In this document: one piece after another, positions 24,026 through 42,779 of the stretch
Layout: each line of letters starts with the position of its first letter
How positions within the stretch are numbered: the stretch's first letter is position 1
NCBI GenBank assembly: GCA_964345075.1
Contig: CAYFPS010000005.1
Location: forward strand, 96,103 to 160,102
Reading direction: 5' to 3'
Length of the DNA stretch: 64,000 bases
Source of the DNA: an uncultured Bacteroidaceae bacterium
GTDB lineage: Bacteria > CAIWAD01
Program-made: the position numbers and the translations under genes
The notes under the pieces: generated by a model
What the model saw: the letters and a program-made list of their open reading frames with translations, nothing else
What the model was told of the DNA's origin: nothing
Databases searched by the model: none

Positions 24026-26803
24026 CTATTCTTCGACGTAATCCTGCACCTTGGGTTGGTAGAACTGCAAGAGCACTCCACCCAGGTAGCCGATTGCGCC
24101 GGAGCCGTAATCGAAGTTGGCGTAGTTCGGGGCCTCGCCGCGATGCACCATGTGCAGGGGCATGGCGTTGAAGGCCGTGCGGAAGTTCGTGTAATAGGGA
24201 TTCAAGCCCTGTCCCATGAAGCTTCCTTCGTAAGCCAGACTTTCGGTGTAGCAGCTGATCGGCTTGCGATGCTTCTCCAGAATCGGCTGCCACTCCACAT
24301 CCACCAGCACCGTGTCGCCGGCGGCCCAGTATTCGGCCGGGTCGTTGATACGCTGATGCTCGACATGAATGAAGGTCTTCTCGCGACCGGCTACCGTCAG
24401 CGAGACCACCTCGCGCGGAAGGGCCCACATGGAGTCGGGACGGCTGGCATTGTGCGCGTCAAAGGCGGCCAGAATCTCGGCACCCCAATAGTTCTGGGCA
24501 ACGGTCGGAATGTAGAGCCAGCAACCCGTCGCGCTGGGTTCCGGCGTGTAGGCCGGGAACCAGGGATCCTGGCCCGGATAGTTGACATCATCCGTCGTAT
24601 AGAAGATGGCCGGCAGATCGGTGGCCCGTGCTACTCGATAGAAGTCAAAGGTCGTCTCTTCATCCAGCCCTGTCGAGTAGCTGTCGTAAGTATGAGTAGC
24701 AATCGTACCCAGACCTTCGTTGATGGCAAAGGCTTCCACAAAGACAGCAGCCGAGTCTGGCGGATTCCAGCGGTAGGGGAAAGGCGCGCTCGGCTCGTAG
24801 AAGCTGTTGTAGCCCGTTGTCAAGCGCAGGCTGTCCACCATCGCCCGGTCCATCACCATGCCCGGCGTGCCTTCGTAAATCGGATCTGCGGCAAGACAAC
24901 CGTCCAGACGACCGAAGAAGAAGGTGGTGTTGTCATCACCATAGACGCTGCTGACACCCATGTAACGCTCAAGGAAGTCACCGGCCTTGTCGGCAAGGAA
25001 AGCACCCGTGTCTTCACCATTGGAATAGTTGAAGGTACCGCGCAGGCTGCTGTAACCTGTCCACAGCAGGCTGCCGCCCATGTCCAGATAGTCCATGGCG
25101 AAGGCCTTCCAGGTCAGGCGCACCTGCGTATAACTAGTGCCGGCGCCCGAACCCTGCGCCCACTTGTCATCAATCACGATGACCGTGCGGTACTGGCTGA
25201 TCACGGAGAAAGGCAGGAGATAGGTGTAAGGATCATCCATATCATCCTGATTGGCCTCAATCCACCAGTAACGGCAATTGTAATCTTCAGGCGAGTCGTG
25301 CATCCAGCTGACCTCGTAGGCAGCATCTTCGCCCACCGTGGCCTTGACCTGCGGCATCAGCTCTTCCAGCATGTCCAGATAGTATTCACGGTGATCCTGA
25401 TCCGAGTCGAAACCCAGATTGCTCGCGCCGGGAGGCGTAAGGTTCATCACCAGCAGGTCGCGCTCCATCGTGACTTCCTGCACCTTGAAGCGCATCCATG
25501 CAGGCTCGGCGCAGCGCTCGAGGCCGTCGTCGCGGCTCCAGACCGTCAACTGATAGAAGCCCGTGGGCAGGTTATAAAGCTCGATCTGGTTGAAGCTGGA
25601 CCAGTATTCATCGTTGAATTCCTGGTCTTCAAAATCGACCACATTGTCTTCGGAAAGCGTCACGCGAACACTGTCCATTTCCATGACCTGCGTACCCAGA
25701 TCCGTGTCCTCTGTCTCTGCGGCCATCCACTCATCCACCAGGCTGTCCGGAATGCGGTGCAGCAGATACTGGAACTCAAGCGGAATCGTCACCAGCGCCT
25801 GATCGTCAGGATCGTCGCCGGAAACCAGGAAGCGCAGACCGCTCCAGTTGACCAGCGGATCTTCGTTGATCGGGATCTCATAATAAGGGCTCACATTGGT
25901 GCGCAGCTGATTGACCACGGAAGGATCGGTGAAGATGTCTTCGTAACCGATGATGTGGCGCTGGTACTCACCCGGCTGCGAGACCTGAGCGTAACCATCC
26001 TTGTAGTAGGCGATCTTCGGGCTGTTGGGCGCGCGGTTCGAACGGTTGAAGGTTCGCATGGCCGCGCTGGAAACAGCACCGTCATTGTCAATGGCCTGAA
26101 CAAAGACCACGTGACGCTGAATCCTGCCCAGGCTGGTGGTCAGGTTGATCGAGGTCTGCGTATTGACCGTTTCCGTCCACTGGATGGTCGGGTCGTTCTG
26201 TTCCACGCGCTGAATGAACTCGGAGACTTCGCAGTCCTCCTCGTCACAGGCGAAATCGTAGTAGCGATAGCTTTCCACAAAGCCGTCCGCATCACTGCCG
26301 CGCCAGAAGATCATCGGCGCGTAGGAGAAGACCGGCGTATAGCGGAAGCTGCCGGAAATGCGATAGAGCTTGCCCAGCTCCCAGGCGAAATCGTCCGTGT
26401 GCTGAATCCACAGATAGCGGGCCACATTCGGATCAATTTCATAGGCATCAGCCGGCACCACCGTCTCCGCACCCGTTGCCGGATCGACTTCAACGATCTG
26501 GTTGATGCCTTCTATAAAGAAGTACTGATAGCGGATCAGCTCGTAGCGGGCCAGCAGATTGGCTTCGCTGGGCATGTTCTGGTTTTCGTCCTCCTCAAAG
26601 CCCTGCAGGGAGTCGGGGAAGATGAAGGAGTAGTCGTCGATCTCATAGATCGTCGTGACGCTGTCGGCATCCTGCTGGTTGTTCACGAAGCTCACTGAGG
26701 GAGCCTGGTTTGCAGAAATCTCGCCATCAATCGTGCTGCAGCCCATGGCCAGCAGCAGGGCGAAAACAGCCGTCACGCTGAAGAAGATTCGTGTGCGCTT
26801 CAT
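24026..26803 (-). CDS. Large lipoprotein of unknown function (925 aa)
   Basis: Lipobox LLAMGC. It is the last gene of a tightly packed five-gene minus-strand operon. Confidence 0.55.
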   Translation of the reverse strand: MKRTRIFFSVTAVFALLLAMGCSTIDGEISANQAPSVSFVNNQQDADSVTTIYEIDDYSFIFPDSLQGFEEDENQNMPSEANLLARYELIRYQYFFIEGINQIVEVDPATGAETVVPADAYEIDPNVARYLWIQHTDDFAWELGKLYRISGSFRYTPVFSYAPMIFWRGSDADGFVESYRYYDFACDEEDCEVSEFIQRVEQNDPTIQWTETVNTQTSINLTTSLGRIQRHVVFVQAIDNDGAVSSAAMRTFNRSNRAPNSPKIAYYKDGYAQVSQPGEYQRHIIGYEDIFTDPSVVNQLRTNVSPYYEIPINEDPLVNWSGLRFLVSGDDPDDQALVTIPLEFQYLLHRIPDSLVDEWMAAETEDTDLGTQVMEMDSVRVTLSEDNVVDFEDQEFNDEYWSSFNQIELYNLPTGFYQLTVWSRDDGLERCAEPAWMRFKVQEVTMERDLLVMNLTPPGASNLGFDSDQDHREYYLDMLEELMPQVKATVGEDAAYEVSWMHDSPEDYNCRYWWIEANQDDMDDPYTYLLPFSVISQYRTVIVIDDKWAQGSGAGTSYTQVRLTWKAFAMDYLDMGGSLLWTGYSSLRGTFNYSNGEDTGAFLADKAGDFLERYMGVSSVYGDDNTTFFFGRLDGCLAADPIYEGTPGMVMDRAMVDSLRLTTGYNSFYEPSAPFPYRWNPPDSAAVFVEAFAINEGLGTIATHTYDSYSTGLDEETTFDFYRVARATDLPAIFYTTDDVNYPGQDPWFPAYTPEPSATGCWLYIPTVAQNYWGAEILAAFDAHNASRPDSMWALPREVVSLTVAGREKTFIHVEHQRINDPAEYWAAGDTVLVDVEWQPILEKHRKPISCYTESLAYEGSFMGQGLNPYYTNFRTAFNAMPLHMVHRGEAPNYANFDYGSGAIGYLGGVLLQFYQPKVQDYVEE

Positions 26804-26804
26804 T

Positions 26805-27800
26805 CTAACGGCTCCAGCTGAGGGTGATCATGTTGCGGCCTTCCAGATAGCGCGAAGGTGCGTAGGCATAGTCAAAGACAAAGCTGCCCATGCTGGACTC
26901 GAACTTGAAGCCCGCGCCCACGCCCAGTCCGTCGGAGGAAAGCAGAGGATACTCATAGCCGGCTTCGGGATCGTAATCTTCCCATTCGGTCTCGCTCACG
27001 GCATTCATCTTCTTGCCCATTCGCAGGAAGAAGCGATCGCGGAAGGCGTATTCGAGGCCGACATTGATGAACTCGACATTATCCGAAGGATGACCGAATT
27101 CAAAAGTACCGGTCAGGAAGTGATCGTCGGTCTTGACGCCGTAAAGATCCATCGCCATGCCGAAGCGGAACATGATGGGAATCGGATACTCTTCCTCGAT
27201 GAAGGACATGTCCGGGCCGAAGTTGGAGATGATCATCGCCATGCGCAGGCTGCGCCAGCCGGTATCATAATAGGTACCGACATCGGCCGCCCAACCCGTG
27301 GCGTCGATTTCCATCGTGCTTTCCTGCAGGTACTTCATCGTGATGCCGGCGCTGAACTTGTTGGTCAGGCGGCGGGCATAACTGAAGCCCAGAGCAAAAT
27401 CCTGATAGTCGAACTCGCGACCCGTGCCCATGGGGCGCAGGGGCGTGGTTTCTTCCATCATGCCGGAATTGAGGTAGGTAACGCTGACACCCCAGGCGCT
27501 GCCGTCTTCGGGATTGCCCTTGGCAACACCGATCCACTCCTGATTGATGTCCACCCACATGGCGTGATGACTGAAGGAGGCCTGCCAGCCGTCCAGCAGC
27601 GTCAGGCCCGCCGGGTTGTAGTACAGGGCGCTGGCATCATCGGCCATCGGCAGCATGGCATCGGCCAAAGCCATGCCGCGCGCGCTGACGCCAATCTTGA
27701 GGAACTGGGCGCCCGCCGTTCCTGACTTCACCTGTGCTTCGGCAAGCTGATTCACACCAAGGGCAAGAACCAGAGCCAGCATCCATCGCATTGCTTTCAT
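26805..27800 (-). CDS. PorV/LptO-like (FadL-like) outer-membrane beta-barrel, T9SS-associated
   Basis: Signal peptide plus an N-terminal GTAGAQFLKIGVSARGMALADAMLPMADDASALYYNPAGL signature of the PorV / UPF0164 family. Beta-barrel-like alternating pattern ending ...ITLSWSR. Confidence 0.45.
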   Translation of the reverse strand: MKAMRWMLALVLALGVNQLAEAQVKSGTAGAQFLKIGVSARGMALADAMLPMADDASALYYNPAGLTLLDGWQASFSHHAMWVDINQEWIGVAKGNPEDGSAWGVSVTYLNSGMMEETTPLRPMGTGREFDYQDFALGFSYARRLTNKFSAGITMKYLQESTMEIDATGWAADVGTYYDTGWRSLRMAMIISNFGPDMSFIEEEYPIPIMFRFGMAMDLYGVKTDDHFLTGTFEFGHPSDNVEFINVGLEYAFRDRFFLRMGKKMNAVSETEWEDYDPEAGYEYPLLSSDGLGVGAGFKFESSMGSFVFDYAYAPSRYLEGRNMITLSWSR

Positions 27801-27815
27801 TGTGCTCCTCCTGCC

Positions 27816-30800
27816 CTACTTGATGATCACGAACTTGCCAGTGGAAATGGAACCGGCGCTTCCGCTGGTCCAGTCTTCCACACTGAAGACGTACAGGCCG
27901 CTAGCCGCCTGCTGGAAGTTACGCGTGTTCAGGTCCCAGTGCTCACTGTAGAGCGCCTGCCAGCGGCTGCGATCGCCTTCGAGGTTGTGCGGCAGAATCT
28001 GAACCAGATCACCGGCAACCGTGTAGATGCGAATCACTGCCTGCTCGGGCAGGTTGATGAACTCGATACGGCGATCCTGCTGATCGTACCAGTCGCGGGT
28101 TCCGTCATCCTGGTTTTCCCACTGCAGTCCCTGCTCCGAGTTGCCAAAGTTGTAGGCGTAGGCCTCGTAGTTGGCGTCGGCACGGTAGGGATTAGGCACC
28201 ACGGCCACCTTGCGTCCTGGCACGCCCGACGGGGCCTGACGGATCGCGTTGCAGCTCATGGCCGTTTCCAGCGGCTCGGTACCTGTCTGGTAATCGCCAA
28301 AGTCATAGGCGGAAACGGAATAGTAGCGCGGGAAGAGGCTGTGTACGTCGCGCACGCGGTAGCGGAACTCGACATCGTAATCGCCCTTGTCCCAGACATT
28401 GTTGTACTCGCCGGCGTTGTCGCTTTCGTCCAGGAAGCGCTCGCCCAGAACAATGATGTCGTCGGCGCTGAACAGTCGGCCACTGGCGGGATCGGCCTGA
28501 TTGCCATCCTCGTGGAAGACCTGCGTGCCATCAGCCAGATAGTACTCGTATGTACCGCTCATGCTGCGTACGGCAACGGCCGCGTTGTAAGCGTTGATCT
28601 GGAAGTCGTAGCCACGGCCGCTGCTGACCCAGTAATCCTCGTTGATGTCCAGCAGGATGGCTTCCTGCGGCTCGCCGATCGGTAGGGCAATATCAAGGAA
28701 GCCCGTGTTGTTGCCCACCGGCTGACGCTCGTAACCGAGGTTGGTCTCGCGCATGGGCAGGCTTTCCAGCGGACCGAAGTCCGGCTGGGTGCGCAGCGAG
28801 TTTTCGCCATCGAAGTAGGCGAAGTTGACATTATCGAACTGCTCAAGCAGGGAATATTCGTTGTCCTGGCTCGTGTTCGAAACCCAGATGCGATAGCCTT
28901 CAAAGTCCTGCACCTGGCTGAAAGGATCGCGATAGCTTTCCGCCATGGAATTACGCGTCCAGACCAGCTCGACGAAGTCTTCGCCCGTCTCGATGGTCAG
29001 GTCAGGACAGGGCGGTGGCGGCGGACCCTGGAAGTCGGGAATACCGTCACCCTTGTCGAGGAAGCCATTGTTGTTGAAGTGGCCGACATACCAGTCTTCC
29101 CTGTTGCCTTCGGAGAACTTGGGACCGGCATAAATCAGGAAGCTGTCTTCGCGCATTTCCTGGAAGCCCAGTGTTTCCCAGAGGAAGCCCCAGAGGAAAT
29201 CGTCTTCGTTGAAGCGGCCGCCCCAGACTTCGCTGGAAAGGGTTGAATCGATCAGGCCATTGCCTTCCGTGCCGTCCTCGTCAGGGCCATTGTAGATGGC
29301 GGGCTGACCGTTCGGCAGGTAGACGATCTGTCCGAAATACTCGACCGTATCGCCCACAGCCGGCGCCCAGAGGCCGTCCAGGCCGACATCCTCGCCGCCC
29401 CAGCCGTCACCCTTGTCGTACCAGCCGTCACCGTCGGTGTCGTAGATCGGCGTGTCGTACATCTCGTTGTCATAGACGCGCTGGGCCCAGATGGCGTTGA
29501 AGTCGAAGTCGGTCCAGACAAACTTGTCAGCGTCAATCGCCCCGGCATTCGTGCCCGTAATGTTGGTCTGCGGGTTGCTGCGGTCATGCAGGTTCTCGCC
29601 AGCCACAAAGGCCACCGTCATGGTGAAGCTCTCACCCGGATTCAGGCGGAAAACATTGAAGCCGCTGGCATCGGTGTAGTCAAAGACGCCCAGCGGACCC
29701 CAGGAAAGCAGGTAGCGGGTGTCGTCACCTTCCAGGTTGGGGCTTTCATTGGCACCGGGAGCCAGCCAGCTCATGGAATCCTGCAGGGTGGGGTTCCACT
29801 GCGGGGAGGGCATGTTGCCCGGATCGATCAGGTACATGTCCGGATCGAACTCGCCATTGGCCAGCAGCTGATACTTGTGAAGATCGGCGTCGGGCGTACC
29901 CAGAATCGAGGTCCAGGTCAGGTTCTGGCCACCGATGGTGACTTCCGGATGCTGGCCCCAGTATTCCCAGGCCGGTCCGTAATCCTGATCGGCATTTCCG
30001 TTGGAATTCCACCAGTTGAAGGTGGTGGTCAGCATCGGATTGGGTGCACGCAGGACGCGGGTTCCCACCACATGGGGGCAGGTGAAGTTCGTTCCAACCA
30101 GATCGTTATGCTCGCGGCCGTCGTTGTCGGCAATGTAGGCGGCGTTGATCTGCACCTTCTGGCCGGTCACGGAATCCACGGCAAACTGGCGGAATCCGCA
30201 GAAGTCATCGGTGTGATGATTGTCCTCATCCTTGTGACCAACATCGCCGTCCATGTAAAGGCCGACATAGAGGTTCTTGAGGAACTTGGAGCCGACATTG
30301 GTCAGCTTGTAGTCAACAATGATGAAGTCCTGCGCGTAGCTGTAGGACCAGCTATGGCTGATCTGCTCGATTTCCACACCCAGGCTGATATGGTTGTTAT
30401 CAGGCGCATCGTAGGATTCGTTGACCAGGCCCAGATTTTCCAGCGTGTCCGAGAAGAGCGCGTAAAAGTCCTGCTCGGAGACCGAAAGGCTGTCGTAAAT
30501 ATCCGACAGATCCAGACAGGACTTGGCGTTCAGGCGCGTGGAGGTCTCGATGATCTCGCCATCGACACCGCAGCTCGGGAAAAGCTCGGCGCCGCCGTCC
30601 CAGCCTTCGAAGCCCACGGAAACACGCGGCGTCTCCAGACCGGAATCATCAACAATCAAGGCACCGACCCAGATGGCACCAACAAACAGGTACTGCTGGC
30701 CGGTACCGCCGGGATACTCCATCTGGGGTGCCCAGACACCATCCAGACAAGGATCCACCTGATCGTCGTCATTTCCAACCCATCCCGAGTTGGTGAAGTT

Positions 30801-30983
30801 TGCCCACATCTTGCCAAATCGGTGGACACGATTGAGCTGGTTTGGAATGCAGATATCAACCTGCTGCTCACTGTCCGGGTTCTTGATCGCTTCCTGGGGC
30901 GCGCCAGAGGTAGCGGCCCAGGCACTACTGCTCGCCATGGTGGCCAGCGTAAGCGCGCATAGCAGCTTGCCGGTGTGTTTCAT
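27816..30983 (-). CDS. Large secreted T9SS cargo protein (unknown function)
   Basis: Signal peptide MKHTGKLLCALTLATMASSSAWA. The C-terminus (WDLNTRNFQQAASGLYVFSVED...KFVIIK) is a T9SS CTD. Confidence 0.6.
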   Translation of the reverse strand: MKHTGKLLCALTLATMASSSAWAATSGAPQEAIKNPDSEQQVDICIPNQLNRVHRFGKMWANFTNSGWVGNDDDQVDPCLDGVWAPQMEYPGGTGQQYLFVGAIWVGALIVDDSGLETPRVSVGFEGWDGGAELFPSCGVDGEIIETSTRLNAKSCLDLSDIYDSLSVSEQDFYALFSDTLENLGLVNESYDAPDNNHISLGVEIEQISHSWSYSYAQDFIIVDYKLTNVGSKFLKNLYVGLYMDGDVGHKDEDNHHTDDFCGFRQFAVDSVTGQKVQINAAYIADNDGREHNDLVGTNFTCPHVVGTRVLRAPNPMLTTTFNWWNSNGNADQDYGPAWEYWGQHPEVTIGGQNLTWTSILGTPDADLHKYQLLANGEFDPDMYLIDPGNMPSPQWNPTLQDSMSWLAPGANESPNLEGDDTRYLLSWGPLGVFDYTDASGFNVFRLNPGESFTMTVAFVAGENLHDRSNPQTNITGTNAGAIDADKFVWTDFDFNAIWAQRVYDNEMYDTPIYDTDGDGWYDKGDGWGGEDVGLDGLWAPAVGDTVEYFGQIVYLPNGQPAIYNGPDEDGTEGNGLIDSTLSSEVWGGRFNEDDFLWGFLWETLGFQEMREDSFLIYAGPKFSEGNREDWYVGHFNNNGFLDKGDGIPDFQGPPPPPCPDLTIETGEDFVELVWTRNSMAESYRDPFSQVQDFEGYRIWVSNTSQDNEYSLLEQFDNVNFAYFDGENSLRTQPDFGPLESLPMRETNLGYERQPVGNNTGFLDIALPIGEPQEAILLDINEDYWVSSGRGYDFQINAYNAAVAVRSMSGTYEYYLADGTQVFHEDGNQADPASGRLFSADDIIVLGERFLDESDNAGEYNNVWDKGDYDVEFRYRVRDVHSLFPRYYSVSAYDFGDYQTGTEPLETAMSCNAIRQAPSGVPGRKVAVVPNPYRADANYEAYAYNFGNSEQGLQWENQDDGTRDWYDQQDRRIEFINLPEQAVIRIYTVAGDLVQILPHNLEGDRSRWQALYSEHWDLNTRNFQQAASGLYVFSVEDWTSGSAGSISTGKFVIIK

Positions 30984-31018
30984 ACAGCTACCCTTCATCA
31001 ATTCCAGATCTTGGGCTA

Positions 31019-33601
31019 TCATTCAGTCACCTCAATGTCAAAGCTCGCGCGCGTCTCCAGCGCCTGATCCTCATCATCAGGATCATCGGTCACGGTCAGG
31101 CTCACACGCAAGGTTCCGACAAAACCATCAAAGGTCTCGACGGTTACCAGGTTGCCATCAAGGGTAAGCGTATGACCATCATCGCCGCCAGAAACAACAA
31201 TCAGCTCGGCGACAAGCGACAGGCCATCGCCTTCCACATCGCTAATCTCAATCTCGCGGCTGAAGGTATCGCCTGTGACAATCGTCGCGTCCGGCTGCTC
31301 GGCAAAGACAGGTGCGTCATTGACCGAGCGGAAAGTAACCGTGACGGTCTCTTCGTCCATGCCTTCGCTGTTGCTGGCGCTGACGGTCAGGCTCGCGCTG
31401 CCGAACCAGTTGGCTGCAGGGTTGAGCATCAGGTGGCGACCGTCCAGAACCACTTCCAGGTTCTCTTCGTCCGTCGTGGCCGTAAAGGTGAAGTCATTGT
31501 CACCGCCGAAGCTCAGCGCGTTCAGCCAGAGCTCGATGGGCAGGTCTTCATTACTTACCAGGCTGCCGATGGAACCCAGCATCGGGCCGGGATTGTCAAT
31601 CTGGCCCGCACCCCAACCGATGGCCCGGCTGCCGCCCGCTTCGCAGTCTTCGATGCTGCCGCCAAAGGCATAACCGGCACCCAGCGTTACCTGGGTGAAG
31701 TCGTTGCATTCGCCAACATTCCAGTTGGTGGGCATGGCGGCCATGTCATCGCCACCATTGCCGGAGAACCAGTTGACATTGACATCGGGATTGTTGGTGT
31801 CCAGCAATTCACCCAGCGTGGTACCGACGATGCCGGTGGCAATTTCGCTGCCGGAAAAATCGTTGTCGGCGATCAGGTTGTAGCGAATCAGCGGATCGCA
31901 GTTGGCATCCAGCTTGATGCCGCCATAGCCGTTGCCGGCGATGGTGTTCTGCAAAATTTCCACGCCGGGGGCGTCGTGCAGCTTGATGCCGTACTGCTGG
32001 CCACCGGCCACCAGATTGTTCTCGATCTGCGAGAAGTAATCGGTGTTGTAGAAGTAGATGCCGTAGGTGCCAAAGCCCTGGATGTCGCAACCGGAAATGC
32101 GGCCACGAGCGCCGTAGGACATGTAGACCGCAGAAAGGCCCGAGTCACTGAAATCGCAGTCGATCACATTCAGCATGCTGCCGGCGCCACTGGCACTGAC
32201 GCCGTGGCTGTTGGAGTTGCTGAAGCTGCAGTTCTCGACGACAGCCGTAGCACCAGATCGCAGTTCGATCATGCCACCGGCGTTGATCCAGTCCTGACCA
32301 CTGTAGGAGCTTTCGCTACCCAGCGCGAAGTCGCAGTTGGCAAAGTGGGCCGTGCCGCCGTTTTCGCCGTTCACCACCACGCTCTTCCAGGCCGCACCGA
32401 TCTGGCGGTCCGCCGTGGGGCCGAAGTGGCTGTTTTCGGCAACCACGCCACCATCGAAATTCAGGCCATAATAACCGGCAAACTCGACGGTCGAGCTGCT
32501 GAGGGTGACGGGATCGTGGCTGAAGGCATCACAGGTCACCGTGTAAACGGCGTTACCCAGATCGGGATTCTTGATGCGCTTGCGCAGCTCGTTGGCCGCC
32601 TGATTGTAGACGATGGGGCCCACATCCGTGCGCTCGCCGTTGGTGCCATAATCAAAGGCCGTCTGAATGCAGGGGCTGCAGGAATTGAAGGCCTGCGCGT
32701 CCGCCTCGAGCTGGTCGAACTGGGCGTCTTCAATCGAGTTGGCGAAGAGGTCCACCTTGTCATTGGCTTCGTTGCGGCGATAAACTTCATCGCCGTTCAG
32801 GTCGAAACCGATGACATCCACACCCAGCGAATAAGCATCCACATCCACCGTATCCGTATCCCAGGGCTGATGGAACTGGGCGACGGCAAAGTCCGTCGAA
32901 TAGCGGAAAGGCAGGCTGCTGTTGGCACTGACATTGTTGTGCACGATCAGGCTGTCGGAAAGCCAGCCCTCGATGCGGGTCGTGTTGCCCACATGGGTCG
33001 TGTCAAAAACGATGCCCGATCCGTCGTTCTCATAAATGATGTTCGAGCGAATCAGTGGCGTAGCCGTACCCTGCAGGGTGATGCCGTTGTACTGGTTCAG
33101 CCAGATCAGGCAGTGCTCGATCAGCGGGCTGGAATTGGTGCAGGTAACGGCAGCCGTCTTTTCCGGATCCGTGTTGTTGAACTTGGAACCGAAAGCGACC
33201 ATGGCGTAGCGCATGCTGGAAGCATCGCTGCCCTCGCGGAAAACGATACCCTGCCAGAGGCCGTAGTCCTCGTCCAGCTCGTAGCCCAGGAAGCGAACCA
33301 TCGAGCCCAGCTGTCCACGCACATCCAGCGTGCCTTCGACAAAGAGGCTGGTCAGGTTGTTCATGTAGACATCCACGCCGGCTTCAATCACCAGTGTCTG
33401 GCCAGCCGGAACCGTAATGTCGCCGGAAACGAAGTAGGGTGAACCCGCCATGTTCCAGGTGCCACTGACGCTGCCTGATGCAACTTCCGTGGTGTAGGCG
33501 CGGGTGACCACAACCTCGTCCCGCGAACTGGTCGTGCTGTCATCACAGGCAACCAGGAAGATCAGCAGGGTCACCGCGATCAGATTGATATAGGTCTTCA
33601 T
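31019..33601 (-). CDS. Lipoprotein with right-handed parallel beta-helix (PbH1) repeats and a C-terminal cadherin/VCBS-like domain
   Basis: Lipobox LVAC. Repetitive NxxxGN/GI beta-helix rungs (NNLVAGGQQYGIKLHD..., QNTIAGNGYGGIKLD...). Confidence 0.55.
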   Translation of the reverse strand: MKTYINLIAVTLLIFLVACDDSTTSSRDEVVVTRAYTTEVASGSVSGTWNMAGSPYFVSGDITVPAGQTLVIEAGVDVYMNNLTSLFVEGTLDVRGQLGSMVRFLGYELDEDYGLWQGIVFREGSDASSMRYAMVAFGSKFNNTDPEKTAAVTCTNSSPLIEHCLIWLNQYNGITLQGTATPLIRSNIIYENDGSGIVFDTTHVGNTTRIEGWLSDSLIVHNNVSANSSLPFRYSTDFAVAQFHQPWDTDTVDVDAYSLGVDVIGFDLNGDEVYRRNEANDKVDLFANSIEDAQFDQLEADAQAFNSCSPCIQTAFDYGTNGERTDVGPIVYNQAANELRKRIKNPDLGNAVYTVTCDAFSHDPVTLSSSTVEFAGYYGLNFDGGVVAENSHFGPTADRQIGAAWKSVVVNGENGGTAHFANCDFALGSESSYSGQDWINAGGMIELRSGATAVVENCSFSNSNSHGVSASGAGSMLNVIDCDFSDSGLSAVYMSYGARGRISGCDIQGFGTYGIYFYNTDYFSQIENNLVAGGQQYGIKLHDAPGVEILQNTIAGNGYGGIKLDANCDPLIRYNLIADNDFSGSEIATGIVGTTLGELLDTNNPDVNVNWFSGNGGDDMAAMPTNWNVGECNDFTQVTLGAGYAFGGSIEDCEAGGSRAIGWGAGQIDNPGPMLGSIGSLVSNEDLPIELWLNALSFGGDNDFTFTATTDEENLEVVLDGRHLMLNPAANWFGSASLTVSASNSEGMDEETVTVTFRSVNDAPVFAEQPDATIVTGDTFSREIEISDVEGDGLSLVAELIVVSGGDDGHTLTLDGNLVTVETFDGFVGTLRVSLTVTDDPDDEDQALETRASFDIEVTE

Positions 33602-33613
33602 CGATGCTCCCCG

Positions 33614-36600
33614 CTAGAACTTGTAGCCGATCTTCAGCAGCACATTGCGTCCGGCGCTGTACATGCGCGGATTGGCGTCATAAACACCCTTCTCCGGGTA
33701 GTAGAGCACATAGTCCGGATTTTCAGGATGCATGGCCAGATAGGTGCTGCCCGTGGCCGAGTAAAGGTCACGCACGTTGCGCTTGTTGAAGAGATTCTTG
33801 ATCTCCACACCCGTCACCAGCTGGTGCTGGCCGGATCCGCCCAGACGGAAGTACTTCTCGAACTTCATGTCGGTCTTTTCCGTCCAGGGCATGCGCTCGG
33901 AGTTGATATCGATCTTCGCATCGTTGTCCACATCCTCCGTGTAGCGGGAAGGCGTGTAGGGCCGGCCGCTACCGAAGGCGGTGGAAACACTCAGCATCCA
34001 GTCGTCAAAGAGCTTGATGCCGAAGAGTTCCAGGTGCTCGCCCTTGTCGTAGTAGAGGGCCGTGTAGGCGTTGATGCTGTGGGTCTGGTCCCAGCCCAGC
34101 GGATGCTCTTCACGGTTGACCGGCACACCGGCCACGCGGGCTTCAGCAGCCTCGGTGGCGGCAGAGGCCTTACCGTAAGCAAAGCTCAGCTCGTAGTTCA
34201 GCGACATGCTGTAGTGGGCGGCGGCCTTCTCGACATTCAGGCTGACGCCACGGGCGCGGCCATAGTCACCATTGGTGTAGATGTCGATGGTGTAACCGGG
34301 AGTCACTTCCACATTGGTGGAGGTCACCTGATCGAAAATGTCGCGGTAATAACCCTGCACGTTGATGGTCGTGCCCCAGTCCGGAATGCGGGCCTCGACA
34401 CCAAACTGGTACTCGACCGTCTTCTCGTACTTGAGGTTCGGGTTACCCACAATAATGCTGTTGGCACGGGCACCGGTAGCTTCCTGGTAGTAGTACTGGT
34501 AGCTGGGCGCCTGATAGAAGTGACCGTAGTTGAAGTAGAGCTTGGCCGTTTCCGTAATAGGATGGCTGATACCCAGACGCGGGCTGAAGCGACCGGTGGT
34601 CTGCTCGGCCTCGATGGCACCCGGATAACCGGCATTGGCTTCATCGCGCGTTTCGCTGACGAAGTTGTCTTCGTGAATCAGGAAGTCGTAGCGCAGGCCG
34701 ATCAGAACATTCAGTCCCTCGAACTCCATCTTGTCGCGGAAGTAAACAGCGCCTTCCCACGGCTTCCGGTGATAGAAGTCACGGAAGTTACCACGATCGG
34801 GATAGGGGCTGTCATCCGGCAGCGGAATAAAGCCGTCGTAGGGGATCTGCGGTTCTTCAATGGACTGCATTTCCATGTCGCGGTAAAGCAGCTCCACGCC
34901 GGTCAGAAGGTCGTGGTAGCGGTTGGCCTGCAGCTGATACTCGGTCTTGAGCGAGTAGGTGATGGAACGACGCTCCTGCCACAGGGCCTGCGTGTCAAAG
35001 GTCTCAGGATTCAGGAAGAAGTCGTAGTTGCCTTCCTGACCATACTGGGCACCCCAGTCGGCGAGGAATGCCGAATTCTGGGACAAGCCACCATCCTGCA
35101 CGCCATTGGCATTGTAGTCGGTAAAGGGCTCCCACTCTTCCCAGGTGGTGTTGGGCGGATCGAAGTAGCTGCCACCCAGCATGGCCGACATTTCCGGATT
35201 GTCACTGCGGTTACTCCAGGTAGCCTCGGCCGCCTGCTGATAGAGAGCCGCACCGGTGGGCCAGTCTGCGCCGTTCATGGCGGGATTGAAATTGTAAATC
35301 ACGGGACGACTTACATCCATCACGCTGCCCTGGAAGTGGGCATTGTCAATCAGGTCCTGCGGGACACCGGCGATATCGCGCACGCCGCCATCACGCTCGG
35401 TGGGATTGCCACCGGTCACAGAGGAAGGATTGAAGTAGAAGGGGTCCACCATGAAACCGGCATAGCTGGTGAACAATTCGTACTCATCGAACTCGAAGTC
35501 GGGTCCGTCATAATGGCCGTTCAGACCGGGCTCGGGCATGGGCACGCTGGGATCGCCACGACGCAACCAGCGCATGAAGGCACCTTCCGTTGAGGGCAGA
35601 TCGAAATAGATCTCGCCTTCATCCCAGATGCCGTTGTACTGGCCGGTGAGCGGATCGGGCTCATCGATAAAGGGCTCGCCCGTATCCCAGAAATAGTCAC
35701 CATCAACAAAGGGCTCGGGCAGGTCTTCATCCGTGTCGCGCACGTCCTTGAAGTTGATGCGGCCGTCGCCATTGATGTCGTCATAACCTTCGGCCATGAC
35801 AATGCCGTCGCCATCCGAGTCCACCAGCGGCTCGCCCAGATCCCAGACACCGTTGCCGTTCAGGTCTTCAAAGTCGTCGATCCAGCCGTTCCAGACACCG
35901 TCGCCGTTCACATCCTGGAAGCGCTCGCCGTCCCAGTGACCGTTGTGATTGGTGTCCTGCTCGGGGGTCTGCGGCTCGGCATCGTCCCAGCGGCCGTTGC
36001 CGTTCATGTCCACATAGGAATCCCAGGGATCGTAACCGGGATTGTTTTCGCCGGTGGTGGGATTGGGCAGATTGACATAGGGCTCGGCGGCATCGTAGAC
36101 ACCGTTGCCGTTCAGGTCCACCCAGTCTTCGCCACGATCCCACATACCATTACGGTTAATGTCTTCGTAGCCTTCCGAGAAAATCGGGTTGCCGTTTTCG
36201 TCGTAGTAGAAGCCATCGTAGGCGCCACTGTTGTTGGCGTCCACATAACCGTCGAAGTAGCCGTTGCCATCCAGATCCTGGAAGCCGAGGAAGGCTGCCT
36301 TGTCGTCTTCCTGCGCGCGCTCCTGGCTGGAGAATTCGAGCATGAAGTCATCGGGATTGCGGTCGGCCGGCGTAATCAGCGTGCGGGTTTCGCTGCGGTA
36401 AAGCACCGCCTCGAAACTCGACTGCTCGCTTAAGGCGGTCGTGTAGGTCAGCGAGAGGGCGTTACGGTTCACCTCGGCGCGCGGACGATTTCGCACGTTA
36501 TAGAGGTAGGGATAACCGTAGTTGCCGCTGGCCGCACCTTCGCCTTCGGGATAAAGATCCCAGCGGCGATAGTAGCGCTCACCGAAAACCTTGAGCTTGG

Positions 36601-37630
36601 AATTGGCCGTAAGCGGGAAGGCGAGGTTCAGCGAAGCCTGATACTCGTTCTTCTGACGCTCGGGCAGATCCAGACCCAGGTTCAGGTAATTCCAGCTGCC
36701 ACGATCCACATCGTAGGGCAGGTAGGTGTCGGTCAGGTAGGCGCGACCACTGAAGAAGAAGGTGGCCCGGCTGTACTTGTCCTTGCCGCCCTGGAAGGGC
36801 AGCGGACCGCCGTAGGTCACATTCAGATGGTCGGTGTTGAAGCTGAAGGCGTCAATGGCCTGGTCGGTCTGGTACTCGACCTTTCCGTGATAGGCATCGT
36901 TGTCACCCTCACGGGTGGAGACCTTGATCACGGCCGCCTGCGCCTGTCCGTACTCGGGGCCGAAACCACCGGAGAGCACGTCCAGCTGCTCGATGTTGGC
37001 CACGTCCAGGTTGACGAAGCTCTGGCCACCGACCAGCGGATCACGGGCGTCGATACCGTTAATCACGAATTTCGTCTCCGTGTCACGGCCACCGCGGGCG
37101 TGAATCTTGCCTTCGTCATCCAGCTTGAAGCCAGGCATCTTGGCCACGATGTCCGTGGCGTCGGTCGCAACGGCGCGCTCGATTTCCTCGGCGCTCACCG
37201 TCAGCGTCTGACCGGCCTGGTCAAGCTTGATGGCGTCCTTCTTGGCCACCACACGGACCTCTTCCAGCTCGAAGCTGGACTGGGTCAGCTTGATGGCGCC
37301 CAGGTCCGTGTTCAGGTCACGCGTGATCACCACATCGGTGACCGTGATCGTGTGATACAGGACGTGGGTGATTTCCACTTCATACGTGCCGATCGGAACC
37401 TGTGCGATAAAGAAATTACCGTCCAGATCCGTGGCGGCGCCCTTCGCCGGCTGGCTTTCCAGGACAACCACATTGGCACCAATCACCGGCTCGCCGGAGT
37501 TGGCATCAATGATCTTGCCCTTGATTTTTCCCGTGTCCGCTGCATGCAGGTTAGTGGCAAACAGCACCACGGACAGGATCAGCCCAAACCACGAAGGCAG
37601 GTGCAAACGATTCGGGGAGCTACCCTTCAT
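33614..37630 (-). CDS. Giant TonB-dependent receptor (SusC-like: CarbopepD_reg + plug + barrel) with an internal calcium-binding repeat insertion
   Basis: Signal peptide, GKIIDANSGEPVIGANVVV (carboxypeptidase-regulatory-like), plug motifs, and a C-terminal ...LLKIGYKF ending in Phe. The internal DxNGNGxxD / DxDGDG repeats resemble thrombospondin type-3 repeats. Confidence 0.7.
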   Translation of the reverse strand: MKGSSPNRLHLPSWFGLILSVVLFATNLHAADTGKIKGKIIDANSGEPVIGANVVVLESQPAKGAATDLDGNFFIAQVPIGTYEVEITHVLYHTITVTDVVITRDLNTDLGAIKLTQSSFELEEVRVVAKKDAIKLDQAGQTLTVSAEEIERAVATDATDIVAKMPGFKLDDEGKIHARGGRDTETKFVINGIDARDPLVGGQSFVNLDVANIEQLDVLSGGFGPEYGQAQAAVIKVSTREGDNDAYHGKVEYQTDQAIDAFSFNTDHLNVTYGGPLPFQGGKDKYSRATFFFSGRAYLTDTYLPYDVDRGSWNYLNLGLDLPERQKNEYQASLNLAFPLTANSKLKVFGERYYRRWDLYPEGEGAASGNYGYPYLYNVRNRPRAEVNRNALSLTYTTALSEQSSFEAVLYRSETRTLITPADRNPDDFMLEFSSQERAQEDDKAAFLGFQDLDGNGYFDGYVDANNSGAYDGFYYDENGNPIFSEGYEDINRNGMWDRGEDWVDLNGNGVYDAAEPYVNLPNPTTGENNPGYDPWDSYVDMNGNGRWDDAEPQTPEQDTNHNGHWDGERFQDVNGDGVWNGWIDDFEDLNGNGVWDLGEPLVDSDGDGIVMAEGYDDINGDGRINFKDVRDTDEDLPEPFVDGDYFWDTGEPFIDEPDPLTGQYNGIWDEGEIYFDLPSTEGAFMRWLRRGDPSVPMPEPGLNGHYDGPDFEFDEYELFTSYAGFMVDPFYFNPSSVTGGNPTERDGGVRDIAGVPQDLIDNAHFQGSVMDVSRPVIYNFNPAMNGADWPTGAALYQQAAEATWSNRSDNPEMSAMLGGSYFDPPNTTWEEWEPFTDYNANGVQDGGLSQNSAFLADWGAQYGQEGNYDFFLNPETFDTQALWQERRSITYSLKTEYQLQANRYHDLLTGVELLYRDMEMQSIEEPQIPYDGFIPLPDDSPYPDRGNFRDFYHRKPWEGAVYFRDKMEFEGLNVLIGLRYDFLIHEDNFVSETRDEANAGYPGAIEAEQTTGRFSPRLGISHPITETAKLYFNYGHFYQAPSYQYYYQEATGARANSIIVGNPNLKYEKTVEYQFGVEARIPDWGTTINVQGYYRDIFDQVTSTNVEVTPGYTIDIYTNGDYGRARGVSLNVEKAAAHYSMSLNYELSFAYGKASAATEAAEARVAGVPVNREEHPLGWDQTHSINAYTALYYDKGEHLELFGIKLFDDWMLSVSTAFGSGRPYTPSRYTEDVDNDAKIDINSERMPWTEKTDMKFEKYFRLGGSGQHQLVTGVEIKNLFNKRNVRDLYSATGSTYLAMHPENPDYVLYYPEKGVYDANPRMYSAGRNVLLKIGYKF

Positions 37631-37692: not shown

Positions 37693-37972
37693 CCCATCCT
37701 GAAGTCAAGACAAGGAAGCTTCCAAAACGGAGGCTATCTTGTTGACAATCAATGACTTTGATAAGTTTCGGGTTCCACAGGCCAAGATTGCATATCTCGT
37801 GCCAACTCTCTTGAGCGTAATTATTTTTCACTACCACGGTGTATATTTAATGGATGCAGAGTATTTGGCATGCCTGCCCGGTGCCGGTGCTCACACTTCA
37901 CGTCAAAAAAGCAAAACAGGTGTTGTGGTGAGACTGTCGCGGAAGCTCGAGTGTGTACGGTTTCTTACACCG

Positions 37973-39013: not shown

Positions 39014-39075
39014 GCGCCGGACCCGTTTTGCCTACTCTATCGGAGCGCCTCGCAGAAGCTTGATTCACGGAATCG

Positions 39076-41099: not shown

Positions 41100-41150
41100 T
41101 CTTCAGTGAACCTGAAAAGGTAGGATTGAAGCTCTTGCATGGCAAGATGA

Positions 41151-42635: not shown

Positions 42636-42779
42636 TTCCGGCTCACGCCAAAGGATGCTGGCGTGTTTCAGCGAATTCAAGAAAATCAGCCTCAAAGTGT
42701 CCGGCCTGTTCGCAGAATGGAACACGGGCTCCTGCTGCCAGCCATGCCTTACATTTGGAGCATTATTCGTGGAGATTTC

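What the first reader, a model, noticed from the sequence alone, without database searches (positions are those of the whole stretch)
35550..36300. Thrombospondin-type-3-like calcium-binding repeat insertion inside a TonB-dependent receptor
The 1339 aa mature receptor carries, between its plug and barrel regions, about 10 repeats of the form DxNGNGxxD, DTNHNGHWD, DVNGDGVWN, DSDGDGI and DINGDGRI. These are EF-hand-like or thrombospondin type-3-like Asp-rich loops that bind calcium. TonB-dependent receptors do not normally contain such repeats. It may be a surface-exposed Ca-dependent binding module, for example for a polyanionic substrate.
Basis: seen in the sequence. Interest (0 to 1): 0.55.

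Follow-up and report, generated by a model that had tools for sequence, protein, structure and literature searches.

The report
Calcium-loop domain on an outer-membrane transporter
A TonB-dependent outer-membrane transporter of an uncultured bacterium carries, in one cell-surface loop, a conserved 460-residue very acidic insert built largely from EF-hand-like calcium-binding loops; this form of the transporter was not found in the literature searched, and what it transports is unknown.

Summary
The gene at 33614-37630 (-) encodes a 1338-aa precursor. It has 10 D-x-[DN]-x-[DN]-G loops, 9 of them at aa 452-630, against 0.35 expected by chance. All 66 full-length homologues (38-99% identity) keep the array. 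About 900-aa relatives have none.

The interpretation needs three corrections.
- The insert is not between plug and barrel. It replaces loop L4, between barrel strands 7 and 8, at aa 421-882, and is predicted to be extracellular.
- It is not a thrombospondin type-3 repeat. No Pfam model matches and the protein has no cysteine. It is a 15-residue unit, D-x-N-G-N-G-x-[WY]-D-x-x-E-P-F-x: a complete 12-residue EF-hand-type loop plus a 3-residue linker.
- The unit is not specific to this receptor. A profile of it finds 1409 protein clusters of many architectures. None has a Pfam model over the repeats or a solved structure detectable by sequence.

The transporter heads a five-gene module conserved across several candidate phyla: a beta-helix lipoprotein, an uncharacterised 1068-aa protein, a PorV/PorQ-family barrel and a 925-aa lipoprotein.

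Most likely role: a calcium-stiffened surface cap for substrate capture or partner docking. Calcium binding, substrate and mechanism are inferred. I rate it a new variant of a known kind, of moderate interest.

The parts
33614..37630 (-). TonB-dependent transporter gene: 1338-aa precursor plus stop codon.
   Evidence: ORF. Pfam CarboxypepD_reg, Plug and TonB_dep_Rec_b-barrel all score above cut-off. The AlphaFold2 model has a plug and a 22-strand barrel. Foldseek matches solved TonB-dependent transporters. The protein ends in ...GYKF, the aromatic C-terminus usual for outer-membrane barrels.
37541..37630 (-). Predicted signal peptide, aa 1-30 (MKGSSPNRLHLPSWFGLILSVVLFATNLHA | ADTG).
   Evidence: Read from the sequence. 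This is an inference; no predictor was run.
37250..37525 (-). N-terminal CarboxypepD_reg-like domain, aa 36-127. This is the N-terminal extension seen in SusC-type transporters.
   Evidence: Pfam PF13715 (1.8e-14) and PF13620 (3.8e-14). PDB sequence hits 6ytc (chain named 'TonB-dependent receptor') and 9hfj (SusC homolog), both short chains of 85-93 aa.
37244..37270 (-). TonB-box-like motif ELEEVRVVA, aa 121-129.
   Evidence: Sequence. The E-x-V-x-V-V pattern is conserved in the family consensus. Assigning it as a TonB box is an inference.
36935..37222 (-). Plug domain, aa 137-232.
   Evidence: Pfam PF07715, 2.2e-11, 44.7 bits against a cut-off of 23.9. Modelled with pLDDT 75-87.
36371..36889 (-). 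Barrel strands 1-7, aa 248-420.
   Evidence: AlphaFold2 strands at model residues 110-117, 129-138, 152-162, 189-201, 206-220, 246-261 and 266-282, with pLDDT mostly 80-95 (model residue + 138 = protein residue).
34985..36370 (-). Loop L4 insert, aa 421-882 (462 aa). Net charge -81, no cysteine.
   Evidence: Absent from the ~900-aa relatives: their occupancy is below 25% over about aa 430-865. It lies between model strands 7 and 8. Charge; cysteine count.
35741..36277 (-). Calcium-loop arrays, aa 452-630. Loops at 452, 464 (degenerate), 476 (degenerate), 490, 505, then a conserved spacer, then 541, 559, 573, 589, 604 and 618.
   Evidence: Motif positions and shuffle test. In 66 homologues loop positions 1, 3, 5, 6, 8, 9 and 12 are 90-100% conserved in the four core loops, while positions 2, 4, 7 and 10 vary. 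AlphaFold2 pLDDT is below 50 over most of it.
35441..35713 (-). Conserved non-repeat acidic and aromatic subdomain of the insert, aa 640-730 (EPFVDGDYFWDTGEPFIDEPD...YNGIWDEGEIYFDLPS...LNGHYDGPDFEFDEYELFT).
   Evidence: Many invariant columns in the alignments. It is the best-modelled part of the insert, pLDDT 84-91 at aa 644-729.
35084..35119 (-). Isolated tenth loop DYNANGVQDGGL, aa 838-849.
   Evidence: D1, N3, N5 and G6 are 90-100% conserved in homologues.
33617..34984 (-). Barrel strands 8-22, aa 883-1338.
   Evidence: AlphaFold2 strands from model residue 745 to 1199, pLDDT mostly 80-96. The Pfam barrel hit falls here.
31019..33601 (-). Co-transcribed partner 1: 860-aa right-handed beta-helix protein with a predicted lipoprotein signal (LVAC).
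   Evidence: Pfam Beta_helix 2.2e-29, NosD and Big_9. It starts 12 nt after the transporter's stop codon. It follows the transporter in almost all related loci.
27816..31022 (-). Partner 2: 1068-aa secreted protein of unknown family.
   Evidence: Its start overlaps the stop of the upstream gene by 4 nt. No Pfam, NCBIfam or PDB match. 421 homologous clusters; every source name in the 120 listed is 'hypothetical protein'. Syntenic in about 60 loci.
26805..27800 (-). Partner 3: 331-aa outer-membrane barrel of the PorV/PorQ family.
   Evidence: NCBIfam NF033709, 2e-56, 192 bits against a cut-off of 90. Pfam PorV and Toluene_X. Syntenic.
24026..26803 (-). Partner 4: 925-aa predicted lipoprotein (LAMGC) of unknown family.
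   Evidence: No Pfam, NCBIfam or PDB match. Weaker but recurrent synteny. N-terminus.

Best explanation
The gene encodes a TonB-dependent outer-membrane transporter. Its fourth extracellular loop has been replaced by a 462-residue, cysteine-free, extremely acidic module.

About half of that module is a run of EF-hand-type 12-residue loops set head to tail in 15-residue units, D-x-N-G-N-G-x-[WY]-D-x-x-E-P-F-x, with no flanking helices. I propose that each loop holds one Ca2+ through the side chains at positions 1, 3, 5, 9 and 12 and the backbone carbonyl at position 7. The aromatic residue at position 8 and the P-F linker would then pack neighbouring loops together. At extracellular calcium concentrations the array would be permanently loaded, turning an otherwise disordered polyanion into a rigid body above the barrel without disulfide bonds.

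Together with the conserved non-repeat subdomain (aa 640-840), this body most likely acts as a built-in cap. It would capture the substrate, or dock the co-encoded surface proteins (beta-helix lipoprotein, 1068-aa protein, PorV/PorQ-like barrel) that deliver it. The plug would then be opened by TonB in the usual way.

Shown here: the transporter fold, the site of the insert, the motif pattern and its selective conservation, and the conserved gene module.

Inferred: calcium binding itself, the structural role of calcium, the cap or docking role, and the direction of transport. The substrate is unknown.
For: - Transporter identity: Pfam Plug and barrel above cut-off; AlphaFold2 plug plus 22 strands; Foldseek TM (target-normalised) 0.7-0.8 to FhuA, BtuB, PqqU and YncD.
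- Insert in L4 and predicted extracellular. It lies between strands 7 and 8. Counting strands from either end gives the same parity: nine of the ten even-to-odd junctions are 2-5-residue turns or short turns, while odd-to-even junctions are long loops or extended hairpins. The ~900-aa relatives lack aa ~430-865.
- The motif is far above chance: 10 against 0.35, and 5 strict EF-hand loops against 0.007.
- Selection acts on the ligand positions. In 66 homologues at 38-99% identity, positions 1, 3, 5, 6, 8, 9 and 12 of the four core loops are 90-100% conserved, while positions 2, 4, 7 and 10 are 3-90%. Position 7 binds through its backbone in EF-hand loops, so its side chain is free to vary, as observed.
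- Net charge is -81 over 462 residues, against -13 and -17 for the flanking parts. There are no cysteines.
- AlphaFold2 cannot fold the array without ions (pLDDT below 50). The same was reported for the DxDxDG domain of CglD, which matches COMP (bioRxiv 10.1101/2023.10.19.562135).
- The same unit occurs in 1409 clusters of mostly secreted or surface-type proteins of unrelated architecture. That fits a generic structural module.
- Other CarboxypepD_reg-type transporters carry 164-550 aa of the same repeats at the same L4 site, and two also carry them at a second site mapping to loop L6.
- The gene order transporter, beta-helix lipoprotein, 1068-aa protein, PorV/PorQ-like barrel is kept in about 60-70 loci from Calditrichota, KSB1, LCP-89, Zixibacteria, Delongbacteria and others.
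- Precedent (my own knowledge, not tested here): two Ca2+ ions order the extracellular loops of BtuB and are needed for high-affinity cobalamin binding (PDB 1NQH appears).
Against: - No calcium binding has been measured.
- No solved structure or curated family covers this repeat, so the coordination geometry is assumed from the motif alone.
- Model coordinates could not be inspected, so 'extracellular' rests on strand parity.
- The cap or docking role is analogy only. Nothing here shows contact with the partner proteins.
- Loops 589 and 604 are missing in about 41% of homologues, so not every loop is essential.
- Several loops deviate at position 9 or 12 (573, 604, 838).
- An acidic surface of this size could have a role of its own, for example cation capture.
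Confidence: 0.5

Rival explanations
1. The bound Ca2+ ions are functional, not structural. They bridge the transporter to a polyanionic substrate such as pectate, alginate, another uronic-acid or sulfated glycan, polyphosphate or extracellular DNA. The co-encoded beta-helix protein would bind or cut that substrate.
For: The partner lipoprotein is a right-handed beta helix (Beta_helix 2.2e-29). In one homologous locus the precomputed hits include faint Pel9A-like and DUF5123 matches. Pectate lyases of this fold use Ca2+ (my own knowledge). The insert is surface-exposed and carries many probable Ca2+ sites.
Against: In EF-hand-type loops with Glu at position 12 the ion is fully coordinated by the protein, apart from one water at most. 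That leaves little room for bridging. No lyase or glycosidase family was detected above threshold in the module. A net charge of -81 would repel polyanions even after about 12 Ca2+ are bound. The same repeat occurs in proteins of unrelated function.
Confidence: 0.17
2. The barrel is not mainly an importer. It would be the outer-membrane platform of a surface-protein export or anchoring system, as Oar is needed for PopC secretion in Myxococcus. The Ca2+-loaded L4 module would hold the large co-encoded proteins on the cell surface together with the PorV/PorQ-like barrel.
For: The transporter is invariably linked to a PorV/PorQ-family barrel (NF033709, 2e-56) and to two or three large secreted proteins or lipoproteins. 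PorV and PorQ handle cargo of the type IX secretion system. One homologue is named 'Protein oar' by its source. Oar-dependent secretion is documented (PMC6434023). In CglD a DxDxDG domain is proposed to mediate protein-protein contacts at the surface (bioRxiv 10.1101/2023.10.19.562135).
Against: The query does not hit the Oar-type barrel model PF25183. No type IX secretion C-terminal sorting domain was detected in the last 110 residues of the 1068-aa, 925-aa or 860-aa proteins. The plug and the TonB-box-like motif are conserved, as in importers.
Confidence: 0.18
3. The acidic loop array is a cation trap. It would concentrate Ca2+ or other hard cations (lanthanides, Fe3+, Mn2+) at the barrel mouth, and the metal itself would be the transported substrate.
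For: EF-hand-type loops also bind lanthanides, as in lanmodulin, and TonB-dependent transporters take part in lanthanide uptake (titles found). The negative charge density is very high.
Against: No metal-uptake genes lie in the conserved module: no chelator synthesis, periplasmic binding protein or ABC importer. The loops lack the Pro at position 2 typical of lanmodulin (my own knowledge). The same repeat decorates many non-transport proteins. Ca2+ is not limiting in most habitats.
Confidence: 0.05
4. The insert has no specific function. It would be a tolerated low-complexity expansion of a surface loop, perhaps kept variable under phage or predator pressure.
For: The number of loops varies (7-14), and two units are missing in about 41% of homologues. 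L4 insert length ranges from 164 to 550 aa across subfamilies.
Against: There are 66 invariant columns across 13 insert sequences that are 53-78% identical to the query. Conservation is position-specific and matches the metal-ligand pattern. The insert is retained in 79 species-level genomes of several phyla. There is no DNA-level repeat.
Confidence: 0.03

Closest known systems
BtuB, the E. coli cobalamin TonB-dependent transporter, with its Ca2+-ordered extracellular loops
   Same: It has the same 22-strand barrel and plug fold (Foldseek hits 1nqh, 3m8d and 2gsk, TM about 0.8 normalised to the target). In BtuB, Ca2+ bound by acidic residues of the extracellular loops orders those loops and is needed for high-affinity substrate binding (my own knowledge).
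   Different: BtuB binds two Ca2+ in an aspartate cage formed by short native loops. Here a 462-residue module with about 10-12 EF-hand-type loops replaces L4. There is no sequence similarity outside the barrel.
Thrombospondin / COMP type-3 repeats (Pfam TSP_3, PF02412) and the COMP-like DxDxDG domain of Myxococcus CglD
   Same: Both are contiguous DxDxDG loops with almost no secondary structure. They are extracellular, expected to fold around many Ca2+ ions, and are poorly modelled by AlphaFold2. NCBIfam gives a weak hit of aa 451-556 to the CglD model (E 0.006, far below cut-off).
   Different: There is no TSP_3 HMM match at E<=10. There are no cysteines, whereas type-3 repeats are cross-linked by disulfides. 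The unit is 15 residues with Glu at position 12 and a P-F linker. The PDB holds solved thrombospondin and COMP type-3 regions, yet the profile search found no PDB sequence at all.
Canonical EF-hand
   Same: The 12-residue loop pattern D1-x-[DN]3-x-[DN]5-G6-x-hydrophobic8-[DN]9-x-x-[ED]12 is met strictly by 5 loops. Ligand positions are conserved and the backbone-ligand position 7 is variable.
   Different: There are no entering or exiting helices and no helix-loop-helix pairs; AlphaFold2 predicts almost no helix in the array. No EF-hand Pfam model matches. Loops follow each other every 15 residues.
SusC/RagA-type TonB-dependent transporters of Bacteroidota, with their SusD lids
   Same: There is an N-terminal CarboxypepD_reg-like extension, plug and large barrel, and the gene is encoded with surface lipoproteins. 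TIGR04056 matches aa 35-259. 9hfj (a SusC homolog) matches the N-terminal domain.
   Different: TIGR04056 scores 76 bits against a cut-off of 368. No SusD-like gene lies in the module. A built-in L4 module may stand where SusD acts as the lid, but that is an inference.
Oar of Myxococcus xanthus and related CarboxypepD_reg transporters
   Same: The domain order is the same: CarboxypepD_reg, plug, barrel. One homologue is labelled 'Protein oar'. The ~900-1000-aa relatives of the query hit the Oar-type barrel model PF25183.
   Different: The query itself does not hit PF25183. The related ~900-1000-aa transporters examined have no calcium-loop insert at this site; Oar itself was not examined here. 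Oar's documented role is protein secretion (PMC6434023).
Other DxDxDG contexts: dockerin, and integrin or FG-GAP 'calcium blades' (Rigden et al. 2011, PMC3123361)
   Same: They share the linear Ca2+-binding motif. The loop DINGDGRINFKD (aa 618) resembles a dockerin loop.
   Different: No Dockerin_1, FG-GAP or VCBS HMM matches. The 15-residue spacing is too short for propeller blades. No strands are predicted in the array.

Membership tests
TonB-dependent transporter | Plug domain (PF07715) | tested here: met
   2.2e-11, 44.7 bits against a cut-off of 23.9, aa 137-232.
TonB-dependent transporter | 22-stranded beta barrel enclosing the plug | tested here: met
   PF00593 scores 91 bits against a cut-off of 27. 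The AlphaFold2 model has 22 strands with pLDDT mostly above 80. Foldseek E 5e-28 to PqqU, FhuA and others.
TonB-dependent transporter | TonB box and energy-dependent transport | not testable with these tools
   A conserved ELEEVRVVA motif precedes the plug. Interaction with TonB and transport need an experiment.
Thrombospondin type-3 repeat (Pfam TSP_3, PF02412) | Match to the family HMM | tested here: not met
   No hit at E<=1 on the whole protein, and none at E<=10 on the insert or on the array alone.
Thrombospondin type-3 repeat (Pfam TSP_3, PF02412) | Conserved cysteine pairs (disulfides) within and between repeats | tested here: not met
   The whole protein has no cysteine.
Thrombospondin type-3 repeat (Pfam TSP_3, PF02412) | Contiguous DxDxDG loops wrapped around Ca2+ with little secondary structure | tested here: inconclusive
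   The motif and the lack of predicted secondary structure are present. The three-dimensional arrangement is unknown, because the model has pLDDT below 50 there.
EF-hand | 12-residue loop with ligands at positions 1, 3, 5, 7 (backbone), 9 and 12 | tested here: met
   Five loops fit the strict pattern, against 0.007 expected. Conservation follows the ligand pattern.
EF-hand | Helix-loop-helix, usually in pairs, and a match to the EF-hand HMMs | tested here: not met
   No helices flank the loops in either model. No EF-hand Pfam hit at E<=10.
SusC/RagA | TIGR04056 above its cut-off | tested here: not met
   76.2 bits against a cut-off of 368.25, with only the N-terminal ~225 residues matched.
SusC/RagA | Adjacent SusD-family lipoprotein gene | tested here: not met
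   The neighbouring genes have no SusD-like Pfam hit in the window or in two homologous loci.
RTX / beta-roll calcium repeats | GGxGxD nonapeptide repeats | tested here: not met
   No GG.G.D string occurs anywhere in the protein.
Integrin-like calcium blade / FG-GAP | DxDxDG loop embedded in beta-propeller blades spaced tens of residues apart, and a match to the HMM | tested here: not met
   The modal spacing is 15 residues. No FG-GAP or VCBS hit. Almost no strands are predicted.

The most novel reading that the evidence does not exclude
The 15-residue D-x-N-G-N-G-x-[WY]-D-x-x-E-P-F-x unit is a structurally new, helix-free calcium-loop fold. In this transporter clade it forms a built-in, Ca2+-dependent lid or docking platform, defining a SusD-less surface uptake (or export) machine. 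That machine would comprise the transporter, a beta-helix lipoprotein, the uncharacterised 1068-aa protein and a PorV/PorQ-like barrel, and would be shared by Calditrichota, KSB1, Zixibacteria, LCP-89, Delongbacteria and related candidate phyla.
Probability: 0.2. Interest if true: 0.75.

Novelty: new variant of a known kind. Interest (0 to 1): 0.5.

Why it matters
TonB-dependent transporters are the main route for large or scarce nutrients across the outer membrane. Known solutions for capturing substrate at the surface are native loops, separate lipoproteins (SusD, TbpB, XusB) or hemophores. A transporter with a built-in calcium-dependent surface module of 160-550 residues would be a further solution.

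It occurs in candidate phyla whose outer-membrane biology is essentially unknown, and it is always next to the same set of unannotated large surface proteins.

Separately, the repeat itself is widespread (1409 representative clusters). It has no Pfam model over it, no match in a PDB sequence search, and no confident AlphaFold2 model in this transporter. Defining it would improve annotation of many surface proteins and add a new structural context to the DxDxDG calcium-binding motif.

The limits are clear. The protein remains an ordinary transporter in fold, and neither the substrate nor calcium binding has been shown.

Tried and rejected
- Frameshift or fusion artefact: rejected. The ORF is continuous, barrel strands lie on both sides of the insert, and the same architecture occurs in 79 genomes.
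- Recent DNA repeat expansion: rejected. Tandem Repeats Finder finds nothing.
- TSP_3, EF-hand, dockerin, FG-GAP and VCBS membership: no HMM hit even at E<=10 on the whole protein, the insert, the array alone, or four pure-repeat proteins from the profile search.
- A transitive link to TSP_3 through cysteine-rich DxDxDG proteins found by the profile (P0179, P0187, P0198, P0209): they carry FG-GAP, PA14 or peptidase M6 domains, not TSP_3.
- PDB by sequence: a profile of the insert gives no hit at E<=10. The whole protein matches only through its N-terminal domain.
- AlphaFold2 on the insert alone with 67 sequences: mean pLDDT 59, with the array still below 50. Foldseek on that model gives nothing meaningful.
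- Type IX secretion C-terminal sorting domain in the partner proteins, which I suspected by eye: no model hit at E<=10.
- Sigma-54 promoter upstream of the transporter: one -24/-12-like site at 37789-37804 (-). The pattern is not enriched in the window (6 matches against 3.5 expected) and is not found upstream in the closest loci. It was left as a side note.
- Literature: three full-text searches for TonB-dependent transporters with EF-hand, thrombospondin or DxDxDG repeats found no description of this architecture. The Caldithrix abyssi genome paper mentions only BtuB-like and thiamine receptors.
- Exact-sequence look-up of the window protein found nothing. The 99%-identical P0001 lies on an NCBI metagenome-assembled contig, GCA_046766155.1, with the same gene order.


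Full report
All residue numbers count the initiator Met of MKGSS... (nt 37630) as 1. Pfam and NCBIfam positions, which were run on a translation one residue longer, are shifted by -1.

**What is at the coordinates.** The region 35550-36300 lies inside one long ORF on the minus strand, 33614-37630. From its first ATG it encodes 1338 residues. Pfam finds a CarboxypepD_reg-like domain (aa 36-127), a Plug domain (aa 137-232) and the TonB-dependent receptor barrel, all above the curated cut-offs. NCBIfam gives only sub-threshold hits to SusC/RagA and haem-receptor models.

**Checking the observation.** Shuffling the 436-residue insert itself, which keeps its Asp/Asn/Gly-rich composition, gives 0.35 motifs on average and never more than 4 in 5000 trials. 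Five loops meet the strict 12-residue EF-hand pattern, against 0.007 expected. There is no tandem repeat at the DNA level.

**Conservation.** A search of 5.8 billion proteins returns 67 full-length cluster representatives (1204-1340 aa, 38-99% identity). One of them, P0001, is the near-identical (99%) copy of the window protein. They are followed by many transporters of about 900-1040 aa that align only outside the insert. Every full-length homologue keeps 7-14 motifs at corresponding positions, and the short relatives have none at this site. In an alignment of 13 insert segments, 66 columns are invariant.

Across 66 homologues, the four core loops (490, 505, 541, 559) are 90-100% conserved at positions 1, 3, 5, 6, 8, 9 and 12. 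Positions 2, 4, 7 and 10 vary freely. That is the pattern expected if side chains at 1, 3, 5, 9 and 12 and the backbone at 7 coordinate a metal. Loops 589 and 604 are missing as a pair in about 41% of homologues, so the number of units is not fixed.

**Where the insert sits.** Against the ~900-aa relatives the extra sequence spans about aa 430-865. AlphaFold2 on aa 139-1338 with a 64-sequence alignment gives a confident plug and a 22-strand barrel (mean pLDDT 72, barrel mostly 80-96). Foldseek matches it to PqqU, FhuA, PhuR, YncD and BtuB.

The insert lies between strand 7 (model residues 266-282) and strand 8 (745-763). Counting from the N-terminus or back from the C-terminal strand gives the same parity. 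Even-to-odd junctions are mostly turns of a few residues, and odd-to-even junctions are long loops or extended hairpins. The 7-8 junction is therefore extracellular loop L4.

So the insert is not 'between plug and barrel', not in the periplasmic plug, and not a fusion of two genes. I could not inspect coordinates, so the side of the membrane rests on this topological argument.

**What kind of repeat it is.** No Pfam model matches the insert, even at E<=10. That includes TSP_3, the EF-hand models, dockerin, FG-GAP and VCBS. A profile of the insert finds no PDB sequence at E<=10. The protein has no cysteine, whereas thrombospondin type-3 repeats are defined partly by their disulfides. No RTX nonapeptide is present.

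The loops fit the EF-hand loop, with Glu at position 12, but have no flanking helices. A profile search of 1.84 billion representative proteins finds 1409 clusters at E<=0.001 and 363 at E<=1e-10. Their lengths run from 99 to 6225 residues, often with many matched stretches. Among the best 148, the spacing between successive motifs is 15 residues in 599 of about 1200 cases. The consensus is E-P-F-x-D-x-N-G-N-G-x-[WY]-D-x-x-E-P-F-x-D.

The unit is therefore a complete 12-residue loop plus a three-residue linker, repeated head to tail. It occurs in proteins with CHASE2-cyclase, PD40, Big_1 and PQQ-propeller domains, and in a 1009-residue Ig-domain-bearing protein of a deltaproteobacterial genome. 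Pfam has no model over the repeats in any of them. Cysteine-rich DxDxDG proteins lower in the list carry FG-GAP or other domains, not TSP_3.

'Thrombospondin-like' is thus fair as a description of the principle: contiguous helix-free calcium loops. It is not supported as family membership. The closest bacterial precedent I found is the twelve-fold DxDxDG domain of the Myxococcus surface lipoprotein CglD. That domain matches COMP by HHpred and is also left largely unstructured by AlphaFold2 (bioRxiv 10.1101/2023.10.19.562135). NCBIfam gives a weak sub-threshold hit of aa 451-556 to the CglD model. The many structural contexts of the DxDxDG motif are reviewed in PMC3123361.

**Anatomy of the insert.**
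- Its net charge is -81 over 462 residues, against -13 and -17 for the parts before and after it.
- After a short linker come a first loop array (aa 452-520) and a conserved spacer (aa 520-540, modelled with pLDDT about 80).
- A second loop array follows (aa 541-630).
- Then comes a strongly conserved non-repeat stretch rich in Asp, Glu, Trp, Tyr, Phe and Pro (aa 640-730). This is the best-modelled part, pLDDT 84-91.
- A variable stretch follows, then a further conserved piece (aa 774-839) ending in the tenth loop.

**The same site in other transporters.** Seven more CarboxypepD_reg transporters found by the repeat profile all carry repeats at the same L4 position, with insert lengths of 164-550 residues. 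Two of them have a second repeat-bearing insert mapping to query residue ~988, which lies in loop L6 of the model. The unit therefore recurs as a decoration of predicted extracellular loops in this branch of transporters.

**Genomic context.** Immediately downstream, on the same strand, lie four genes:
- an 860-residue right-handed beta-helix protein with a lipoprotein signal;
- a 1068-residue protein with no match in any library;
- a 331-residue PorV/PorQ-family barrel (NF033709, 2e-56);
- a 925-residue predicted lipoprotein with no match in any library.

A scan of one genome per species found 79 loci. The order transporter, beta helix, 1068-aa protein, PorV/PorQ-like is kept in nearly all that are long enough. 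They are labelled Calditrichaeota, KSB1, LCP-89, Zixibacteria, Delongbacteria, Hatepunaea, Electryonea and others. A more distant paralogous set (about 30% identity) keeps the transporter, a 1068-aa-like protein and a PorV-like gene without the beta-helix gene.

The 1068-aa family has 421 clusters, and every source name in the 120 listed is 'hypothetical protein'. Upstream genes (sigma-54 activator, Wzz/GNVR, PilZ) are shared only with the closest relatives. No SusD-like gene is present.

**Most likely mechanism.** I commit to a structural role for calcium. The loops bind about ten to twelve Ca2+ ions and turn a disordered polyanion into a rigid, disulfide-free body on top of the barrel. Together with the conserved non-repeat subdomain, that body serves as a built-in cap. 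It captures substrate or docks the co-encoded surface proteins before TonB-driven import.

The transporter fold, the L4 position, the motif, its ligand-specific conservation and the conserved module are shown. Calcium binding, the structural role, the cap or docking role and the direction of transport are inferred. BtuB, where two Ca2+ ions order the surface loops and enable high-affinity binding, is the nearest functional precedent (my own knowledge).

**Rivals.**
The beta-helix partner hints at this. Full coordination of the ion by Glu-12-type loops and the residual negative charge argue against it.
- An export or anchoring platform like Oar working with the PorV/PorQ-like barrel. This is plausible given the gene linkage, but no sorting domains were found.
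- A cation trap. No metal-uptake genes are present.
- A functionless loop expansion. The conservation argues against it.

**Novelty and score.** Full-text searches found no description of a TonB-dependent transporter with EF-hand, thrombospondin-type or DxDxDG repeats. Sources annotate these proteins simply as TonB-dependent or iron-transport receptors. I rate this a new variant of a known kind: an ordinary transporter fold with an unusual, conserved, probably calcium-dependent surface module. The module is built from a widespread repeat that has no Pfam model over it and no PDB sequence match, and it sits in an uncharacterised five-gene outer-membrane module of candidate phyla. Interest is moderate (0.5). 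It would rise if the repeat proves to be a new fold, or if the module acts as a lid or docking platform in a new type of surface machine.

Noticed in passing
window 24026-37630 (-); also L001-L070, L081, L082: There is a conserved five-gene outer-membrane module: transporter, 860-aa beta-helix lipoprotein, 1068-aa protein with no match in any library, PorV/PorQ-family barrel, and a 925-aa lipoprotein with no match. The order is kept in about 60-70 loci from several candidate phyla. The 1068-aa family has 421 clusters, and every source name in the 120 listed is 'hypothetical protein'.
   Followed up: partly
proteins P0134-P0281; L076 7847-10876 (+): The 15-residue calcium-loop unit D-x-N-G-N-G-x-[WY]-D-x-x-E-P-F-x is widespread. 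It is found in 1409 representative clusters, in proteins with CHASE2-cyclase, PD40, Big_1 and PQQ-propeller domains. There is no Pfam model over the repeats and no PDB sequence match. It looks like an undescribed repeat family.
   Followed up: partly
P0160 aa 999-1104 and P0271 aa 733-850: Two related transporters carry a second repeat-bearing insert. It maps to query residue ~988, which lies in predicted extracellular loop L6. This suggests the repeat was recruited into surface loops more than once.
   Followed up: partly
window 37789-37804 (-): A sigma-54-type -24/-12-like element, TGGCACGAGATATGCA, lies about 160 nt upstream of the transporter's start codon. A sigma-54 activator gene lies nearby at 41151-42809 (-). 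The pattern is not enriched in the window (6 matches against 3.5 expected) and was not found upstream in the closest related loci.
   Followed up: partly
window 37973-42809 (-): Upstream neighbours are a PilZ-domain protein, a 278-aa protein of unknown family, a Wzz/GNVR chain-length-determinant-like protein and a sigma-54 activator. This block is shared only with the closest relatives (L001-L005, L080), so it is not part of the core module. It hints at a link to exopolysaccharide or c-di-GMP regulation.
   Followed up: no
window 27816-31022 (-), protein aa 528-541: The 1068-aa partner protein has a single DTDGDGWYDKGDGW loop of the same DxDxDG type. The beta-helix and 925-aa partners have none.
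   Followed up: no
window 60001-64000: G+C content falls from about 0.58-0.60 over most of the window to 0.50-0.51 in the last 4 kb. This could mark a boundary with foreign or different-origin DNA.
   Followed up: no
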